The notes under the pieces were generated by a model. It was not told the DNA's origin and did no database searches. It was given only the letters and a program-made list of their open reading frames with translations. A program made the translations under genes and the position numbers. Positions 1 through 6,218 of a stretch of 13,515 nt of DNA are shown in pieces. Source of the stretch: a virus (lineage: Duplodnaviria; Heunggongvirae; Uroviricota; Caudoviricetes); the IMG/VR virus record IMGVR_UViG_3300028952_000008, positions 1 to 13,515 of that record; one strand, 5' to 3'. Numbering within the stretch: the stretch's first letter is position 1; each line of letters starts with the position of its first letter.

Positions 1-1678
1 TCAGCGTCTGCCCGTTCCATACCGGCATACAGCGCATCGCCGAGCAGAAATCACTGAGCACATCCCACGCCTTACGCTGCGTGGTCAGCCAGGCATTACA
101 GGTGATGCGCGGCTCCGTGCCGCCAAAGCCGTCCGGCACCGACTGGTCGCAGTACTGGCCGATGACATACAGCGCCCATTTATCCACATCCGACGCACCA
201 AGACGTTTTCCCATGCCGTAGCGCGGATGGGTCAGCATATCCCACAGACACCAGGCCATGTTGTTGCTGTATGCTGGCTTAAACGTTCCGTCCCAGATAC
301 CGCTGTATTGTCGCGTCTGCGGGTTATAGTTCGACGGCACCTGCAGAATGCGCCCGCGAAGATGATAATTACGACTCACCTGCTGGCTGCCGAACTGCTC
401 CGAGTCCACCTGTACGCCGACCAGTGCCGTGTTCGGGTAGCACTGTTTCACATCGATGATTTCGGTGTATGACGACCAGAGCGTTTTGTTCTGCAGCTGG
501 TCTGTGGTGCTGTCCGGCGTCATCCTGCGCATCCGGATATTAAACGGGCGCGGCGGCAGGTTATCCACCACCACCGAGGCCAGATACTGCGAGGTGGTTT
601 TGCCTTTAATGGTGATGTCTTTTTCCGTCACCCAGCCACCGTTACGCTGTATCTGAACCAGCAGGCGGACTTCCGACGGATTCCGGTCCCCCTTTGAGGT
701 GGTTTCCACCAGTGCCTGCACACCGAAGGTAAAGCGCAGACGGTCGATGTTTGCAGACGTGATGGTCCGGGTAATCGGCGTGTCGTACTTCACTTCCGTA
801 CCCAGCACCGTCTCGGAGCCGGAGGATTCAAATCCCTCCGGCGGTGTCTGCTCCTGCTCACCGGCCCGGAACACCACCGTGACACCGGAGATATTGGTAT
901 TCCCCTCCCCGCCATGCATGATCTCCACCATGCGCTGCGTCATTCGGACAAATCCATTTTCAATAGCCTGCTGATAATCAATGATCACCAGCGCCGACTC
1001 CTCGAAAAGGCACTGAATTTCAGCGGGGGCATGAGCGTAATAGTCCGCAATTCTGCTGAAATTAAACACCGTGTGACGTTCTGCCGCACACAGGAGGAAT
1101 TTCTCAATATCAGGATCAAGGGACGCCGAACGTATCCGGCTGATCAGCTCCTGAGTTTTCGTATCGTCGTACAGTTCACTGATATCCGGTTTACCGCCCG
1201 ACGGCTCATAAACAGGCGTATCAATTTTCGTCGTATACGGCTCCTCCTTATTTCCTATACCGGGCAAAACATCCGTCAACAGTTCATCAATTTCTGTCGG
1301 GCCGAAGCCTGTCAGGGAGACATCAAAATCAGCATTGATTAGGACCGACAGCTCCATCCGCAACAGATCTTCATCCCAGCCAGCATTCATCGGTAGGCGA
1401 TTATCTGCCAAGCGGTACGCCTTTTTCTGCTCATCCGTCAGGCCAGACAGAACAATGACCGGAACAGAATCCATTTTGAGCATTTCAGCCGCCATAACAC
1501 GACCGTGACCCGCAATAATTTCGCCCTTTTCGTCAATCAGCACCGGATTAGTCCAGCCGAATTGCTTAATACTTTCTACCAGTTGTGCCACCTGCTCAGT
1601 ACTGTGCGTCCTGGCGTTGTGCGCATACGGTGACAATTCTTGTAATGGGCGATAGACTATCTTTAATTTCTCGCTCAT
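1..1678 (-). CDS. Chimeric ORF, 3'-truncated by the window edge: N-terminal ParB-like nuclease domain fused in frame to a lambda J-like tail tip / host-specificity protein segment (J-like part about nt 2-908)
   Basis: Hand translation from ATG at 1676-1678 (SD AAGG about 5 nt upstream) gives MSEKLKIVYRPLQELSPYAHNARTHSTEQVAQLVESIKQFGWTNPVLIDEKGEIIAGHGR..., a ParB/sulfiredoxin-type N-terminal motif. The frame stays open to ...EGNTNISGVTVVFRAGEQEQTPPEGFESSGSETVLGTEVKYDTPITRTITSANIDRLRFTFGVQALVETTSKGDRNPSEVRL..., which I recognise as phage lambda J from about residue 57. The frame was translated without a stop from 1678 down to about 661 and spot-checked at nt 2-58 (...LSDFCSAMRCMPVWNGQTL); nt 59-660 were not translated and continuity there is assumed. 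Absent from the ORF track because no stop lies inside the window. Confidence 0.75.
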   Translation of the reverse strand, partial: MSEKLKIVYRPLQELSPYAHNARTHSTEQVAQLVESIKQFGWTNPVLIDEKGEIIAGHGRVMAAEMLKMDSVPVIVLSGLTDEQKKAYRLADNRLPMNAGWDEDLLRMELSVLINADFDVSLTGFGPTEIDELLTDVLPGIGNKEEPYTTKIDTPVYEPSGGKPDISELYDDTKTQELISRIRSASLDPDIEKFLLCAAERHTVFNFSRIADYYAHAPAEIQCLFEESALVIIDYQQAIENGFVRMTQRMVEIMHGGEGNTNISGVTVVFRAGEQEQTPPEGFESSGSETVLGTEVKYDTPITRTITSANIDRLRFTFGVQALVETTSKGDRNPSEVRLLVQIQRNGGWVTEKDITIKGKTTSQYLASVVVDNLPPRPFNIRMRRMTPDSTTDQLQNKTLWSSYTEIIDVKQCYPNTALVGVQVDSEQFGSQQVSRNYHLRGRILQVPSNYNPQTRQYSGIWDGTFKPAYSNNMAWCLWDMLTHPRYGMGKRLGASDVDKWALYVIGQYCDQSVPDGFGGTEPRITCNAWLTTQRKAWDVLSDFCSAMRCMPVWNGQTL

Positions 1679-1690
1679 ACAGCCTTGCTT

Positions 1691-1729
1691 TATGAATAAA
1701 ACGCACCCCAGCAGCCAGTGCTACTGGGG
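1691..1729 (-). terminator. Candidate intrinsic terminator downstream of trkG
   Basis: Minus-strand hairpin CCCCAG-12 nt loop-CTGGGG (1706-1711 / 1724-1729) followed on the minus strand by UGCGUUUUAUUCAU. Short stem and long loop, so weak. Confidence 0.35.
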
Positions 1730-1815
1730 GCGGAGGTGTTGCTGGTAAAGTTAGGTATTGGATCAATGAGTGAGTCAATATAATATTAAACTCACAATTA
1801 TAAATCAGCCATATA

Positions 1816-3273
1816 TTAGGAGCGCCAAAAAAAAACTGAAAACAATATAATAACAGGATAAATTTCAAGGCGACCAAGAATCATAGCTATGCACATTAAA
1901 TATTTTGCAATGTCATTAAGCACTCCGAATGACGATGCAGTAGCCCCAAAACCTAATCCCATATTATTAATACATGCAGCCACTGTTGCAAATGATGTAA
2001 GAAAATCATATCCCATACCATTTAACACCAGTATAAAAAACACCGTGAAGAGAGTATAAAGAAAAAAGAAACTCCATACAGACCTCATTACACGATCTGT
2101 AACTATCTTCCCTCCTACATTTACACTCAACAACGCTCTGGGATGAGAAAGCTGATTTATCTCGTGTTTGCTTTGTTTGAAAAGTATAAGAAATCGAAGT
2201 GACTTAATTCCACCACAAGTTGAACCTATACATCCCCCAAAGAAACTTGACAACAGCAAAAACACTATCGTGTGCGTGGGCCAGTTTGCATAATCTTGCG
2301 TAGCTAAACCATTATCAGTGAGCATGGAGCTGGCAAGAAAAAACGAATGAATAAAACTTCCATGCAAGTCATACATACCTATATGCCAGACCTGGAAAGA
2401 GGTAACAATGATCACCACTAAGGCTATTAACAGAAAGAAACGAAGTTCAATATCTCTGATTAAAGGTTTTATCGTTTTTCTGCTAATAACAATATACCAA
2501 AGAGTAAAGTTGAAAGCCGATAGCAGGGAAAAAGCACCAGCCACCAGCTCAACCAAATAGTTATTAAAATATCCGATACTCTCGCTATGAGTTGAGAAAC
2601 CACCAAGCGAAACTGTGGAAATCCCGTGACAAATAGCATCAAACAAAGGCATTCCTGCAAGTCTATAACAGACAATACAAGCAATACCTAATAAAGAATA
2701 AGTTATCCACAGTGTCCGTGACGTATCGGCCAGGCGGGGAGTGAGTTTGTCATCCTTAAATGGCCCCGGCATTTCTGACTGATAAAGCTTTGCACCACCA
2801 ATACCCAATAATGGCAATACTGCAACCGCCAGAACAATAACTCCTAAACCACCTATAAAATTTAACTGTGACCGATAGTACAAATATGCCCGAGGTAATG
2901 AACTAACATCATCAATTACAGTTGCTCCTGTTGTTGTTATTCCAGAAACCCCTTCAAACAGAGCATCAATGAACGTTAAATTAAGTTCTGAGTCAATCCA
3001 TAAAGGGAATGCACTAATAACAGAAAACAAAATCCAAAACATTACAATTATAATAAACCCATCACGGGTACGTAATTGAATGCCAGATTTCTTAGTTGTA
3101 TACCACGCTCCGCCACCAATGCAAAAAAATATAACGAAAGTTATAAAGAAAACGAACAGGCTTTTTTCTTTATAAAACAATGCTACAACCATTGGTGGCA
3201 ACATTGAAAGACTATAGAGCCAAACCAGGAACCCACACATATGAGTAACAACTCTTACATGAGATGTATTCAT
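1816..3273 (-). CDS. trkG: TrkG/TrkH-family potassium uptake protein (485 aa)
   Basis: ORF-track ORF 1816..3291 begins at a TTG; the first ATG at 3273 gives 485 aa starting MNTSHVRVVTHMCGFLVWLYSLSML.... Multi-pass membrane protein with repeated glycine-rich pore-like motifs (TTTGATV, LGGFSTHSESIGYF, NNMGLGFGAT). Visibly AT-rich compared with neighbouring phage genes. Confidence 0.88.
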   Translation of the reverse strand: MNTSHVRVVTHMCGFLVWLYSLSMLPPMVVALFYKEKSLFVFFITFVIFFCIGGGAWYTTKKSGIQLRTRDGFIIIVMFWILFSVISAFPLWIDSELNLTFIDALFEGVSGITTTGATVIDDVSSLPRAYLYYRSQLNFIGGLGVIVLAVAVLPLLGIGGAKLYQSEMPGPFKDDKLTPRLADTSRTLWITYSLLGIACIVCYRLAGMPLFDAICHGISTVSLGGFSTHSESIGYFNNYLVELVAGAFSLLSAFNFTLWYIVISRKTIKPLIRDIELRFFLLIALVVIIVTSFQVWHIGMYDLHGSFIHSFFLASSMLTDNGLATQDYANWPTHTIVFLLLSSFFGGCIGSTCGGIKSLRFLILFKQSKHEINQLSHPRALLSVNVGGKIVTDRVMRSVWSFFFLYTLFTVFFILVLNGMGYDFLTSFATVAACINNMGLGFGATASSFGVLNDIAKYLMCIAMILGRLEIYPVIILFSVFFWRS

Positions 3274-3410
3274 ATCTAAATATTCTTTCAATTATAACCA
3301 CCTTGCTGCAATATTATGATTATACTGTATAAAATTTAACTCCTCTTAGATCTTACTTCACTGTTCCTTATGAAACAATCATCAAAATGAATCATATTGT
3401 AGTTAAGATT

Positions 3411-3875
3411 TTACTTTAAACACTGTTCGGTTATGTATTGCTGAGCACCTTCAAGTTGGGCCTGCATCATTACCAGTCGTTCCCGGAGGGTGAAATAATC
3501 CCGTTCAGCGGTGTCTGCCAGTCTGGGGGAGACTGCATTATCCACGCTGGAGGTGGCGGTGGCTTCACGCACTGACTGACAGACTGCTTTGATGCGCAAC
3601 CGACGACGACCAGCGGCAACATCATCACGCAGAGCATCATTTTCAGCTTTCGCATCAGCTAACTCCTTCAGGTATTTTGCATCGAGTGCAGCAACATCAC
3701 GCTGGCGTATCTGCATGTCAGTAATGATTGCGGTCGCCTGGTTGAGTTTTTCCGTCACATTATCGCGTTGCGCTTTGTAGGTAATGGCATTATCACGGTA
3801 ATGATTAACAGCCCATGACAGGCAGACGATGATGCAGATAACCAGAGCATAAATAATCACGGCAACTCTGCTCAC
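3411..3875 (-). CDS. rzpR: Rz i-spanin (inner-membrane spanin subunit)
   Basis: Translation ...[38 protein letters not shown]...[14 protein letters not shown]... closely resembles lambda Rz. The ORF-track start at 3890 is a TTG; a GTG at 3873-3875 overlaps the endolysin stop (GTGA) and gives a lambda-Rz-like length of 154 aa. Confidence 0.85.
3470..3655 (-). CDS. rzoR: Rz1 o-spanin lipoprotein, embedded in the +1 frame of Rz
   Basis: [61 protein letters not shown]: lipobox LVVVGC followed by a proline-rich stretch, wholly inside the Rz gene in another frame, as in lambda Rz1. Confidence 0.85.
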
Positions 3876-4405
3876 TGCTCTATCCCCCAACAGGCTAATG
3901 CGCTCTCCTGATCACGACGAATAACCTGACCGTAACAGTTATTTGAACGAAGGCGGCAATCGCGCCCCCTGTCCTTAATCCACCAGCGAATCGCCTCGCA
4001 GGCACCTTTACGATCACCTGCATTCAGCCGCTTATAAAATGTCGACGGAAAACACTTAGCGGGGCCAATGTTATAGGGACAAAATGACGCGATACCCGCT
4101 TTTTGTGGTTCGGTCAGTGTTACTTTAATATTGCGATCCACCCATGCCAGCGCCTTATCACGCTCAATGGCATTAACCTGATCGCATTTTTCCTTCGTCA
4201 GCCTCATTCCCGGTATGACGGGCTTACCATCCACCATTGTGGCACCACGACAGATGGTCCATATACCGGAACCATCGCGGTATGCCGTTGTGTGGTTACC
4301 TTCTTTTTCATCCAGAAACTGGTCGAGAATATCAGGCGCAGGCGCACCGACGGCAATCAGTGCCAGAACGGCAGCCGACAGGCCGTATCTGATTTTTGCG
4401 TTCAT
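3872..4405 (-). CDS. SAR endolysin (T4-lysozyme-like muramidase with N-terminal signal-arrest-release domain, phage 21 R type)
   Basis: 177 aa; N-terminal Ala/Gly-rich weakly hydrophobic segment [24 protein letters not shown], then E-x8-D-x5-T catalytic spacing ([18 protein letters not shown]) as in the phage 21 SAR endolysin. Partner pinholin lies upstream. Confidence 0.85.
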
Positions 4406-4510
4406 GGATATTTATCAGGATTTATCGGTTTCTGAACCCTGGATATGTTTATCTGTCCCGGCCTGTTGAATCAGGCAAGGAATAGTTAAATACAATAGAG
4501 AGGATTATTT

Positions 4511-4783
4511 ATGGACAATAGCACCATTTCTCTACAGGAGTTGCTCGACTGCATTTCCAGGCTTCGGGATGATGTAAATGCCCTTACTGTCGCATTTTCA
4601 TATCTGGCATTCTCAATTCCCAAGGAACAAATGCAACCAACACTGGCATCGCTCCAGCTTGAATCACTCAACCCCAAATGGTCCCAGCAACAACAAAATT
4701 CTTTCAAGTGGCTGGCGGTATTACTGGAAGAAAAATATGCTGGTGAAATTACCATTTCGGCGGAGTCTTCAGTGAACCAGTAA
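4511..4783 (+). CDS. Hypothetical 90-aa protein encoded antisense to the lysis cassette
   Basis: ATG at 4511 preceded by GAGGA about 8 nt upstream; protein-like composition (MDNSTISLQELLDCISRLRDDVNALTVAFSYLAFSIPKEQMQ...). Fills an otherwise unexplained ~340-bp gap between the endolysin start and the upstream gene's stop. Overlaps the 3' end of ORF 4749..5093 convergently by about 35 nt. Confidence 0.4.
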   Translation: MDNSTISLQELLDCISRLRDDVNALTVAFSYLAFSIPKEQMQPTLASLQLESLNPKWSQQQQNSFKWLAVLLEEKYAGEITISAESSVNQ

Positions 4784-5093
4784 TTCTTCCCGGCAGTTTT
4801 CCTTTGTAGGTTATCCGCACACCCTGCGCCTCTAAAATTATGGGGCGCTTTTCCGGTGACTGCTCATCCCCTTCACATAACCCGGCAGCAACATCCAGGA
4901 AGACCTGTCTGATGCTTCTTCTGGCTGCTGCCTCATAAAACTCCAGCGCGGCACCTTCAACACGGTCCAGCGAGATGTCCAGGTCTAAAATTTCACCGTC
5001 AAAGCGTTTTTTGTCCCGTAACGCTAAAGTTACCGTAACTTTATTCTCAAAATTGCGGATCCCTTTCACAATCAGTTCATAGTTTTGAGTCAT
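4749..5093 (-). CDS. Hypothetical 114-aa protein between holin and endolysin (YdfR/DUF1327-like by position)
   Basis: ATG at 5093 lies 4 nt after the holin stop, with the holin C-terminal codons GGAGAG acting as SD (translational coupling). Soluble-looking protein MTQNYELIVKGIRNFENKVTVTLALRDKK.... The family assignment is from recalled gene order in the Qin prophage (essQ-ydfR-rrrQ), not from sequence identity. Confidence 0.6.
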   Translation of the reverse strand: MTQNYELIVKGIRNFENKVTVTLALRDKKRFDGEILDLDISLDRVEGAALEFYEAAARRSIRQVFLDVAAGLCEGDEQSPEKRPIILEAQGVRITYKGKLPGRITGSLKTPPKW

Positions 5094-5097
5094 TGAA

Positions 5098-5304
5098 TTA
5101 CTCTCCCCGTGCAGCCTTACGCTTATCTTCTTTAATCTTGAAATAAAGATTTGTCAGATACGTCAACAGGCCAAACACCAGACTACCCAGCACACCTATT
5201 GCTGCCCACTGTGAGGGCGTGACTCTATCGAGCAACTGTAAAAACCAGTAGCCAGCACTGCCTGCGGAGGTGCCATAGGCGACACCTGTTGTTAACTTAT
5301 CCAT
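5098..5304 (-). CDS. Class II holin, pinholin of the phage 21 S type
   Basis: 68 aa [68 protein letters not shown]: two TM segments plus a charged C-terminus, near-identical to the S21 pinholin as I recall it. An in-frame TAA two codons upstream rules out a longer antiholin form. Confidence 0.88.
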
Positions 5305-5364
5305 GGATTAAGGACCACCAGCCCAAGCTCAGGCACCAGAACAGGTCTAAGTAATACCCGCACG

Positions 5365-5637
5365 TTACCTCCAGATCCGTTGCTGGAAAGTGCGGGACGG
5401 ACGTGGTGGGCGTTCGGAATAAGGCAGCCTGACAGAGATTATCCAGTGCCGATAGTCGAGACTGAGAGCTTTCTTAACCTCGAACCCGCGCCTGCGGTAA
5501 GAATGAATCAGCCATTCGGCCTGTTCTTCAGTACATGGTGGGTGTTGGTACCAGTCGGTTTTAAATGCGTGTGAACGCCGCTCATGCCGGATGGCAAGGT
5601 CGGTATCAGAATTGTGAAATTTGGTTTTGTGCGCCAT
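5365..5637 (-). CDS. Hypothetical 90-aa basic protein immediately upstream of the holin
   Basis: ATG at 5637 with only a weak SD (AGAGAAAACAG-ATG); His/Arg-rich (MAHKTKFHNSDTDLAIRHERRSHAFKTDWYQHPP...). It sits 60 bp upstream of the holin and downstream of a strong terminator. No recognisable family. Confidence 0.4.
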   Translation of the reverse strand: MAHKTKFHNSDTDLAIRHERRSHAFKTDWYQHPPCTEEQAEWLIHSYRRRGFEVKKALSLDYRHWIISVRLPYSERPPRPSRTFQQRIWR

Positions 5638-5804: not shown

Positions 5805-5960
5805 TTACTCCTCAGGTTCGTAAGCTGTGAAGACAGCGACCTCCGTCTGGCCGGTTCGGATTCGTACCTCGCAGAGGTCTTTCCTCGTTACCAGTGCCGT
5901 CACTATGACGGTTAAACAGATGACGATCAGGGCGATTAACATCGCCTTTTGCTGCTTCAT
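5805..5960 (-). CDS. hok: Hok/Gef-family type I toxin (51 aa)
   Basis: Not in the ORF track (<60 aa). Hand translation: MKQQKAMLIALIVICLTVIVTALVTRKDLCEVRIRTGQTEVAVFTAYEPEE, with N-terminal TM helix and conserved C-E...R.G..EVA.F.AYE; SD AAGGAG 9 nt upstream. As I recall, near-identical to HokD/RelF and Gef. Confidence 0.9.
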   Translation of the reverse strand: MKQQKAMLIALIVICLTVIVTALVTRKDLCEVRIRTGQTEVAVFTAYEPEE

Positions 5961-6016
5961 AGCCTGCTTCTCCTTGACCTTTCGGTCCGTAAGAGGCTAA
6001 TCTCTATGTGTCGCAT
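5957..6016 (-). promoter_or_regulatory. hok leader with a translationally coupled 19-codon upstream ORF (mok-like)
   Basis: Minus-strand ATG at 6014-6016 opens MRHIEISLLRTERSRRSRL, ending in TGA that overlaps the hok ATG (ATGA). The uORF start sits in the palindrome TCTATGtgtcgCATAGA (6002-6019). Confidence 0.4.
5974..6003 (+). promoter_or_regulatory. Candidate promoter for a Sok-like antisense RNA
   Basis: Plus-strand TTGACC (5974-5979), 18-bp spacer, TAATCT (5998-6003); a transcript from about 6010 rightward would be antisense to the hok leader and uORF start region. No RNA evidence. Confidence 0.3.
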
Positions 6017-6218
6017 AGATATGGCCTCAGATTAATGTTAAGCGTCTTGCAGGACGCGTAATGTTAACTGGGGCTTTTCTCTATCTGCCTTTTGGTGTTC
6101 ATGCCTGAGACAGATAGCCTCAAGCACCCGCAGTTATTCTACTTAACTAAGATTTCCCCGCAAACCGTTTTTGTCCGGCACAGTAAATATCCAACTAAAC
6201 CAATGGCGTTCGCTGTAT

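What the first reader, a model, noticed from the sequence alone, without database searches (positions are those of the whole stretch)
4406..4783. Plus-strand 90-aa ORF with its own SD, embedded antisense within the lysis cassette
The about 340-bp space between the endolysin start and the upstream gene is too long for a coupled lysis operon. It contains a plus-strand ORF (4511-4783) with a GAGGA SD and promoter-like hexamers upstream (TTGAAT 4466-4471; TACAAT 4491-4496), convergent with and overlapping the 3' end of the 114-aa gene by about 35 nt. A convergently transcribed gene here could interfere with lysis-gene transcription or encode an unrelated cargo function. The same spacer also carries repeated TTTATC / GGATAT motifs (4401-4455).
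Basis: seen in the sequence. Interest (0 to 1): 0.45.

Follow-up and report, generated by a model that had tools for sequence, protein, structure and literature searches.

The report
Opposite-strand cargo gene in prophage lysis cassette
The plus-strand ORF is a real, conserved gene for a small acidic helical protein of unknown function that sits backwards between the ydfR and lysozyme genes of many E. coli prophages; it is already annotated as a hypothetical protein, so it is a fairly ordinary accessory ("moron") gene.

Summary
ORF 4511-4783 (+), GAGGA 4500-4504, the 343-nt gap and the 35-nt convergent overlap with ydfR are all present.

It is a genuine gene. PGAP calls it WP_000370551.1 and it matches phrog_2411 over its full length. 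It stays open in 11 copies at 57-100% aa identity, with pN/pS 0.34 and dN/dS about 0.15-0.23 against distant copies. The mirror minus-strand ORF carries stops in 7 of 11 copies.

A profile search finds 30-40% identical chromosomal genes of about 90 aa in Serratia, Chimaeribacter and Sodalis. In Serratia and Chimaeribacter they lie between dinI and bssS. AlphaFold2 predicts three helices and a disordered tail. The tail is read-through into the antisense of ydfR. No Pfam, NCBIfam, PADLOC or PDB relative was found.

Compared with "empty" prophages, which have a 63-nt spacer, about 295 bp (4464-4758, 41.7% GC) is extra DNA.

The proposed promoter is weak. Its spacer is 19 nt, its -35 is not conserved, and its start site would fall within the SD. 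Interference with lysis is untested. It is also moot in this window, because a 4.35-kb deletion has removed Q and the holin 5' end.

Best reading: an opposite-strand moron encoding a small cytoplasmic binding or regulatory protein. The biochemical function is unknown.

The parts
4511..4783 (+). CDS for a 90-aa acidic protein (pI 4.4, 10.2 kDa), known as WP_000370551.1, 'Ybl58' and phrog_2411. Three predicted helices span residues 8-35, 38-52 and 59-77, and residues 81-90 are disordered.
   Evidence: PGAP CDS; phrog_2411, E=3e-59, positions 1-90 of 90; conservation; AlphaFold2; names.
4498..4504 (+). Shine-Dalgarno sequence GAGAGGA, 6 nt upstream of the ATG.
   Evidence: The string (A/G)AGGATTATTTATG is conserved in all 9 E. 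coli-type copies aligned.
4464..4758 (.). Segment of about 295 bp that is present here and absent from 'empty' ydfR-lysozyme junctions, where about 21 bp take its place. Its GC content is 41.7%, against 48-52% in the flanking genes.
   Evidence: Alignment with L004 and L005; GC values.
4487..4496 (+). TAAATACAAT, the best candidate for a -10 region. A TAAAT[AT] box lies 19-24 nt before the start codon in the E. coli, plasmid and Citrobacter lineages. This is inferred, not shown.
   Evidence: Alignment. No consensus promoter was found by the scan.
4466..4471 (+). It lies 19 nt from TACAAT and 15 nt from TAAATA, and it is poorly conserved.
4749..4783 (.). Convergent 35-nt overlap. The last 11 codons and the stop of the ORF (...ITISAESSVNQ*) lie on the antisense of the last codons of ydfR (…ITGSLKTPPKW*). 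The ORF tail past ITIS is read-through into ydfR sequence.
   Evidence: The tail is disordered in both models. The Citrobacter copy stops directly after ITIS.
4749..5093 (-). ydfR-family gene (DUF1327, 114 aa), the convergent neighbour. Its last two codons (KW*) differ from the ESQP* of 'empty' alleles.
   Evidence: PF07041, E=8e-42.
4406..4463 (-). Leader/spacer of the lysozyme gene, with three TTTATC (GATAAA on the minus strand) repeats. It is shared with prophages that lack the ORF and is not part of the inserted unit.
4826..4852 (+). Weak terminator-like hairpin, GCGCCTC-N9-GGGGCGC followed by TTTT, 43 nt after the ORF stop and inside ydfR. It also occurs in empty sites and is not significant on its own.
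   Evidence: z = -1.2; no canonical terminator.
3872..4405 (-). SAR-type phage lysozyme gene (context).
5098..5304 (-). P21-type class II holin gene (context). It has lost its first three codons and its upstream region to a deletion.

Best explanation
The ORF is a bona fide gene carried as an opposite-strand accessory cassette (a 'moron') in the late/lysis region of lambdoid E. coli prophages, between ydfR and the lysozyme gene.

It encodes a soluble, acidic protein of about 10 kDa made of three helices. The protein belongs to an unnamed family whose older members are single, stand-alone chromosomal genes in Serratia, Chimaeribacter and Sodalis.

Shown:

- It is coding and under purifying selection.
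- It is extra DNA relative to otherwise similar prophages.
- It has a conserved SD.
- In phages it travels with the 3' tail of ydfR.
- Its last 7-8 residues are read-through into ydfR antisense.

Inferred:

- It is transcribed on its own, from the roughly 47 bp it brought along (candidate -10 TAAATACAAT), independently of Q-dependent late transcription. It would therefore be expressed in the lysogen, as lambda bor is.
- The product acts in the cytoplasm by binding a host protein, as a small modulator of host physiology.
- It is not part of the lysis machinery.
- Any effect on lysis-gene expression would be a side effect of convergent transcription.
For: Gene reality:

- It is annotated as a CDS in RefSeq genomes.
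- It matches phrog_2411 over its full length.
- The full region is present in about 1130 of 5426 complete E. coli genomes, and the exact protein occurs on at least 1000 contigs.
- The ORF is intact in 11 copies at 57-100% aa identity.
- Variable sites fall 23/18/40 by codon position, and pN/pS is 0.34 against 0.9-1.15 in four of the five other frames (the fifth, the mirror frame, is covered under evidence against).
- Against the plasmid copy, dS is 0.98 and dN 0.23. Against the Citrobacter copy, dS is 2.2 and dN 0.33.
- The mirror minus frame carries stops in 7 of 11 copies.
- A profile search of 1.84 billion representatives and 5.8 billion proteins finds relatives of 80-97 aa down to about 30% identity.
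- AlphaFold2 gives the same three helices with two alignments, at pLDDT 83.9 and 80.8.

Cargo status:

- Empty sites have a 63-nt spacer, and K-12 Qin has ydfR overlapping rrrQ.
- The insert has a lower GC content.
- The gene occurs next to different downstream genes: lysozyme, a holin_8 cassette, IS66 and a Citrobacter lambda-S-type holin.
- It also occurs on an IncF plasmid, downstream of an autotransporter gene.

Chromosomal relatives:

- They show the syntenic order pyrC-dinI-X-bssS-solA in S. marcescens, S. proteamaculans and Chimaeribacter.
- In S. marcescens the gene follows the dinI terminator and has its own AAGGAG.

Protein properties:

- All members are acidic, with pI 4.4-5.5, and the window protein is not hydrophobic overall (GRAVY -0.2), which argues against a membrane protein.

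Precedent:

- Related prophages carry opposite-strand small-regulator or lipoprotein genes in the same region, namely iss/bor and iraM-like genes.
Against: - There is no direct evidence of transcription or translation.
- No canonical sigma-70 promoter or intrinsic terminator was found. The candidate -10 would leave a leader of only about 8-12 nt.
- dN/dS alone cannot separate the + frame from the wobble-sharing minus frame, which gives pN/pS 0.29. Strand assignment rests on stop codons, remote protein homology and the structure prediction.
- pTM is only 0.53-0.63, so the packing of the helices, or the oligomeric state, is uncertain.
- No fold or sequence relative with a known function exists. 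The 'binding modulator' function is therefore inference from size, charge and context only.
- Frameshifted copies exist in some genomes, so the gene is dispensable.
Confidence: 0.6

Rival explanations
1. The ORF's main role is at the RNA level. Plus-strand transcription converges on ydfR and the holin gene and dampens leaky or premature late/lysis expression. It would do this by transcriptional interference or through the 35-nt (or longer) antisense overlap. The protein would be secondary.
For: - The convergent arrangement overlaps the 3' end of ydfR.
- There is no strong terminator after the ORF, so read-through into ydfR and the holin gene in antisense is possible.
- The ORF stays linked to the ydfR tail in nearly all phage copies: all 19 full-length rows.
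Against: - The protein sequence is under purifying selection and is conserved to 30% identity in chromosomal genes that have no convergent partner.
- Most ydfR-type cassettes work without the ORF.
- Viable phages carry it.
- The candidate promoter is weak, whereas Q-antiterminated late transcription is very strong by established lambda biology. The late transcript would more likely silence the ORF than the reverse.
Confidence: 0.1
2. The protein is a functional partner of YdfR, for example an antagonist or regulator of it. [quoted passage not shown] The two convergent genes would form a two-gene module.
For: - Linkage to ydfR or its 3' tail persists across E. coli, E. albertii and Citrobacter prophages.
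- YdfR is reported to interact with RNase E (PMC13232886).
Against: - The linkage is explained more simply by physical overlap, since recombination cannot easily separate overlapping genes.
- The Citrobacter convergent gene shares only its last 12 residues with YdfR and has no DUF1327 domain.
- Chromosomal relatives and the plasmid copy have no ydfR nearby.
- Most ydfR genes lack the ORF.
Confidence: 0.08
3. The ORF is not a gene. On this view it is a chance open frame, or the real coding frame is the 89-aa minus-strand ORF 4486-4755, which sits in the lysis operon and starts at an ATG that overlaps the ydfR stop.
For: - The minus ORF is open in the window and its ATG (4755) overlaps the ydfR stop, as in coupled operons.
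- It shares wobble positions with the + frame, so its pN/pS is also low, at 0.29.
Against: - The minus frame has internal stops in 7 of 11 homologous copies, while the + frame is intact in all of them.
- Its product is Cys/Ser-rich and looks like an antisense translation.
- Remote protein-level homologues and a confident helical model exist only for the + frame.
- PGAP and PHROGs both use the + frame.
Confidence: 0.03

Closest known systems
Lambda bor / iss (and lom): morons in the late region of lambdoid phages
   Same: - It is a small extra gene set into the late/lysis region.
- It is transcribed against the direction of the late operon.
- It is present in some mosaics and absent in others.
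- It has a lower GC content than its flanks.
- It is presumably expressed from its own signals in the lysogen.
- An iss gene in the same opposite orientation lies just past Rz in the related prophage L004.
   Different: - Bor/Iss is an outer-membrane lipoprotein with a signal peptide and a known phenotype (serum resistance).
- This protein is acidic, soluble-looking and all-helical, and has no sequence similarity to Bor/Iss.
- It sits between ydfR and the lysozyme gene, not after Rz.
- It overlaps its neighbour's 3' end.
- No clear promoter or terminator brackets it.
Prophage-borne iraM-like anti-adaptor genes and other small connector/regulator proteins (IraP, IraM)
   Same: - These are small stand-alone genes of about 90-110 aa on the opposite strand, next to the holin gene in related prophages (L004; phiSTEC1575-Stx2k).
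- They act by binding a host protein.
- That is the kind of mechanism proposed here.
   Different: - No homology was found. hhalign of the family profile against K-12 IraP gives probability 0.3%.
- No Pfam hit to anti-adaptor families was found.
- The resemblance is in size, placement and proposed mode of action only.
phrog_2411 / 'Ybl58' / RefSeq WP_000370551.1 (uncharacterised family)
   Same: - It matches the 90-position PHROG profile over its full length (E=3e-59).
- The exact protein is already in RefSeq and UniProt as a hypothetical protein or Ybl58.
   Different: - Nothing is known about the family's function.
- The link to chromosomal dinI-bssS genes of Serratia and Chimaeribacter is not part of any annotation seen here.

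Membership tests
phrog_2411 (phage protein family, function unknown) | Significant full-length match to the family profile HMM. | tested here: met
   E=3.1e-59, 198 bits, residues 1-90 on profile positions 1-90 of 90.
Moron (Hendrix-type extra gene in a phage operon) | Present in some related phage genomes and absent from others, which then show a clean junction at the same site. | tested here: met
   L004 and L005 have a 63-nt ydfR-lysozyme spacer. K-12 Qin has ydfR overlapping rrrQ.
Moron (Hendrix-type extra gene in a phage operon) | Base composition differs from that of the neighbouring genes. | tested here: met
   the insert has 41.7% GC, against 51.5% for lysozyme, 48.4% for ydfR and 48.3% for the holin gene. 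The difference is modest.
Moron (Hendrix-type extra gene in a phage operon) | Own promoter upstream and terminator downstream, allowing autonomous expression in the lysogen. | tested here: inconclusive
   One search found no consensus promoter or terminator. There is only a conserved TAAAT[AT] box and a weak hairpin at 4826-4852. Expression was not measurable with these tools.
Bor/Iss lipoprotein family | Sequence homology to Bor/Iss and a lipoprotein signal peptide. | tested here: not met
   Searches gave no Pfam hit. The sequence has no N-terminal hydrophobic signal or lipobox, and the protein is acidic and soluble-looking.
IraP/IraM anti-adaptor proteins | Sequence or profile similarity to the anti-adaptor families. 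| tested here: not met
   hhalign against IraP gives probability 0.3%; no Pfam match.
Known anti-phage defence proteins (PADLOC) | Match to a defence-system HMM. | tested here: not met
   no hit at E<=1 for the ORF, YdfR or two distant homologues.
Lysis-cassette component (holin, antiholin, endolysin or spanin) | Same strand and operon as the lysis genes, plus a transmembrane, SAR, lipoprotein or muralytic domain. | tested here: not met
   It is on the opposite strand, has no Pfam lysis domain and is hydrophilic (GRAVY -0.2). Cassettes without it are common.

The most novel reading that the evidence does not exclude
The family is an unrecognised small regulator of Enterobacterales. It is a core gene between dinI and bssS in Serratia and Chimaeribacter. 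Lambdoid phages would have captured it and would express it from the lysogen to retune a host stress, SOS or RNA-decay pathway. Its conserved convergent overlap with ydfR, an RNase E-binding protein, could make the expression of the two genes mutually exclusive between lysogeny and lytic growth.
Probability: 0.12. Interest if true: 0.6.

Novelty: new member of a known kind. Interest (0 to 1): 0.27.

Why it matters
If the gene is expressed in lysogens, about one E. coli genome in five carries a phage-delivered small protein of unknown action, and Stx2-converting and ExPEC-associated prophages are among the carriers. The same family is a conserved chromosomal gene in Serratia. Working out its target would annotate thousands of 'hypothetical protein' entries and could reveal another way prophages adjust host physiology. 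As it stands, it is a catalogued but uncharacterised accessory gene and not a new kind of element.

Tried and rejected
- **Minus-strand mirror ORF 4486-4755.** I considered this seriously because it is open, starts on the ydfR stop and shares wobble positions, which gives it pN/pS 0.29. I rejected it because it has stops in 7 of 11 copies.
- **IraP-like anti-adaptor.** This idea came from memory of helix patterns. hhalign gives probability 0.3%, so I rejected membership.
- **Paralogy with the Serratia neighbours BssS or DinI.** hhalign is negative for both.
- **Fold searches of the AlphaFold2 model.**
  - Foldseek against PDB gave a best E of 3.
  - BFVD gave a best E of 0.5.
  - afdb50 was not available.
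- **Profile against PDB sequences.** Nothing below E=0.4.
- **Family and RNA libraries.** There were no meaningful hits in Pfam, NCBIfam or PADLOC. Rfam found nothing in 4300-5000.
- **LexA box upstream.** By eye there is only CTG-N6-CAG or CTG-N17-CAG, not the CTG-N10-CAG of a LexA box. This was not pursued.
- **Literature.** There were no hits for the WP accessions, phrog_2411 or ybl58. One unrelated mention of DUF1327 turned up, and nothing specific on opposite-strand genes between the holin and endolysin genes.
- **Citrobacter convergent gene.** I first took the 238-aa gene to be a long DUF1327 protein. Pfam and BLASTP show that only its last 12 residues match YdfR.

Full report
**1. Observation.** The window is part of an E. 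coli lambdoid (Rac-like) prophage.

Its lysis genes lie on the minus strand:
- P21-type holin, 5098-5304
- YdfR/DUF1327, 4749-5093
- lysozyme, 3872-4405
- Rz, 3411-3875/3890
- trkG follows Rz

The plus-strand ORF runs from the ATG at 4511 to the TAA at 4781-4783 and encodes 90 aa.
- GAGAGGA lies at 4498-4504.
- TTGAAT is at 4466-4471 and TACAAT at 4491-4496.
- The gap from the ydfR stop to the lysozyme ATG is 343 nt.
- The ORF overlaps the 3' end of ydfR by 35 nt.
- TTTATC occurs three times and GGATAT twice between 4406 and 4453.

**2. Is it a gene, and on which strand?**

Annotation and prevalence:
- RefSeq/PGAP annotates exactly this CDS as hypothetical protein WP_000370551.1.
- It matches phrog_2411 end to end, with E=3e-59. 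Some sources name it Ybl58.
- The full region is found in about 1130 of 5426 complete E. coli genomes.
- It is also in three deposited phages, including Chlobot and an inducible Stx2k phage.

Codon-level conservation:
- I collected diverged copies from E. coli, E. albertii, E. ruysiae, an IncF plasmid and a Citrobacter prophage, spanning 57-100% aa identity. All 11 keep the plus frame open.
- Over the non-overlapping 237 nt, variable sites fall 23/18/40 by codon position.
- pN/pS is 0.34, against 0.9-1.15 in four other frames.
- Against the plasmid copy, dS is 0.98 and dN 0.23. Against the Citrobacter copy, dS is 2.2 and dN 0.33.

One caveat needed separate treatment.
- An 89-aa minus-strand ORF (4486-4755) is open in the window.
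- It starts on the ydfR stop.
- It shares wobble positions with the plus frame, so its pN/pS is also low, at 0.29.
- That frame is interrupted by stop codons in 7 of the 11 copies, and its product looks like an antisense translation.

The plus strand is therefore the coding strand.

**3. The wider family.**
- A profile of the E. coli proteins, searched against 1.84 billion representatives, found only about 20 clusters. Several of these were proteins of 80-97 aa at about 30-40% identity.
- A second search with a broader profile found about 125 proteins. They come from many Serratia species and from Chania, Gibbsiella, Chimaeribacter, Sodalis, Acerihabitans and Citrobacter.
- Y31, L32 and E51 are invariant, and the AFSYLAF and L-x-(F/L)-E-S motifs are conserved.
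- In S. marcescens, S. proteamaculans and Chimaeribacter the gene sits in the same chromosomal slot, rne-ABM-pyrC-dinI-X-bssS-solA.
- In S. marcescens it follows the dinI terminator and has its own AAGGAG.
- In Sodalis and in a metagenomic lineage it is likewise a lone small gene among unrelated chromosomal genes.
- One distant member lies in another phage, next to lambda-type terminase genes.
- All members are acidic, with pI 4.4-5.5, and the window protein is not hydrophobic overall (GRAVY -0.2), which argues against a membrane protein.

**4. Structure and homology to known proteins.**
- AlphaFold2 was run with a 12-sequence and a 35-sequence alignment. Both gave the same three helices, at about residues 8-35, 38-52 and 59-77.
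- Mean pLDDT was 83.9 and 80.8, and pTM 0.63 and 0.53. The tail at 81-90 was disordered.
- There was no hit in Pfam, NCBIfam or PADLOC, and none against PDB sequences.
- Tests against IraP, BssS and DinI were negative.
- No Rfam family covers the region.

**5. Anatomy of the insertion.**

Boundaries:
- Prophages with the same ydfR type but no ORF (L004, L005) have a 63-nt spacer between the ydfR stop and the lysozyme ATG. K-12 Qin has ydfR overlapping rrrQ.
- The alignment places the extra DNA at about 4464-4758. It replaces about 21 bp of the empty allele and changes the YdfR C-terminus from ...TPPESQP* to ...TPPKW*.
- The segment has 41.7% GC, against 48-52% for its neighbours.

Spacer and ORF tail:
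- The left-hand spacer, 4406-4463, with the TTTATC/GGAT repeats, is shared with empty sites. It is therefore the lysozyme leader and not part of the cassette.
- The last residues of the ORF (AESSVNQ) are read from the antisense of ydfR. They are disordered in the models. The Citrobacter copy stops right after ITIS.

Linkage to ydfR:
- The Citrobacter and plasmid copies still carry about 11 nt of the ydfR tail (GAACCAGTAAT or a near match) after the gene.
- The Citrobacter convergent 238-aa gene shares only its last 12 residues with YdfR and has no DUF1327 domain.
- My inference is that the phage lineage of the gene was established next to ydfR and has since moved together with a short piece of the ydfR 3' end.
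- The other flank varies: lysozyme, a holin_8/M15 cassette, IS66, or a lambda-S-type holin.

**6. Expression signals.**
- The SD is conserved in all E. coli-type copies.
Its spacer is 19 nt and the consensus scan finds nothing.
- Its -35 hexamer varies among copies.
- A start about 7 nt after TACAAT would fall at about 4503, inside the SD.
- A TAAAT[AT] box 19-24 nt before the start codon is shared by the E. coli, plasmid and Citrobacter lineages. It is my best candidate for a -10, but this is inference.
- There is no canonical terminator. A weak hairpin at 4826-4852 inside ydfR also exists in empty sites.

**7. Context of this particular copy.**
- Compared with strain TUM9803 (L001), the window has a deletion of about 4.35 kb. 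It joins holin codon 3 (about 5308) to the gene at 5365-5637.
- The deletion removes the Q antiterminator, rusA and DUF968 genes, along with the first holin start.
- A gpJ fragment abuts trkG.
- This copy therefore sits in a defective prophage with no late transcription left to interfere with.

**8. Interpretation.**
- The best-supported reading is an opposite-strand moron. A host-type small gene was captured into the late region of lambdoid phages and spread by mosaic recombination. It is probably expressed on its own, and it encodes a small acidic helical cytoplasmic protein that most likely works by binding another protein.
- The closest known analogues in kind are lambda bor/iss and the prophage iraM-like genes. 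Both occur on the opposite strand in related prophages. Membership of either family was tested and not met.
- Rival readings are less likely, for the reasons given with each: an antisense or transcription-interference role, a YdfR partner (YdfR binds RNase E, per PMC13232886), or a non-gene.
- No paper found here addresses the protein.

**9. Verdict.**
- The gene is real but already catalogued as a hypothetical protein.
- The new points are modest: strand proof, insertion boundaries, the read-through tail, the chromosomal dinI-bssS relatives, and the weakness of the proposed promoter.
- Interest is low to moderate.

Noticed in passing
window 5290-5370 (junction at about 5308), compared with L001:7010-11356: A deletion of about 4.35 kb relative to strain TUM9803 removes the Q antiterminator, rusA, DUF968 and other genes. 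It fuses holin codon 3 to the region upstream of the 273-nt gene at 5365-5637. The holin therefore starts at the S68 Met, having lost its MKS antiholin start and its RBS. The lysis cassette in this window is a dead remnant.
   Followed up: yes
window 1-3291: A truncated gpJ tail-tip gene directly abuts trkG, which follows Rz. The head and terminase genes seen in the related prophage L001 are missing. The replication and immunity genes are Rac-like (ydaU, ydaV, ydaT, sieB, kil).
   Followed up: partly
window 5862-6129 (-): A hok/sok type I toxin-antitoxin locus. It comprises a Hok/Gef CDS at 5862-5960 and an Rfam sok match at 5958-6129 (106.7 bits).
   Followed up: partly
window 4406-4453; L012:2880-2930: The leader of the lysozyme gene carries three copies of GATAAA (TTTATC on the + strand) and has no obvious SD. 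It is conserved in prophages with and without the ORF. The E. albertii copy has one extra 10-nt unit (TTTATCAGG[A/T]), which suggests slippage. Its function, if any, is unknown.
   Followed up: partly
window 4486-4755 (-): An 89-aa mirror ORF is open in this copy, and its ATG overlaps the ydfR stop. It shares wobble positions with the real gene and therefore mimics purifying selection (pN/pS 0.29). It is broken by stops in 7 of 11 homologues.
   Followed up: yes
window 4478-4497 and 4501-4520: A 20-nt direct repeat at 75% identity (AGGAATAGTTAAATACAATA and AGGATTATTTATGGACAATA). The sequence just upstream of the SD thus resembles the SD-start region itself. This may be chance or an old local duplication.
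   Followed up: no
L004:2891-3055; L035:3569-3892; L018:4069-4392: Related prophages, including Stx2 phages, carry an iraM-like (PmrD-fold) anti-adaptor gene upstream of the holin gene. It is also on the strand opposite to the late operon, making a second opposite-strand small-regulator moron in the same region.
   Followed up: no
L019:2430-3803 and L035:1285-3303: Some prophages, including phiSTEC1575-Stx2k, have the P21-type holin + ydfR + ORF block followed by a second, different lysis cassette (holin_8, holin_3_7 and an M15 peptidase). They therefore carry two holin systems in tandem.
   Followed up: no
P0046, P0050, P0051, P0058, P0059, P0064; L002:1501-1700: Frameshifted 94-aa variants of the protein occur in several E. 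coli genomes. In strain B19 a deletion removes most of the ORF and ydfR. The gene is therefore dispensable and decays in some lineages.
   Followed up: partly
L003:3007-3285 (plasmid p4422IncF): A 57%-identical copy lies on an IncF plasmid, just downstream of a large autotransporter gene and next to IS remnants, outside any phage context. A poly-A tract at its 5' end differs by one A from the related protein P0065, which shifts the usable start codon.
   Followed up: partly
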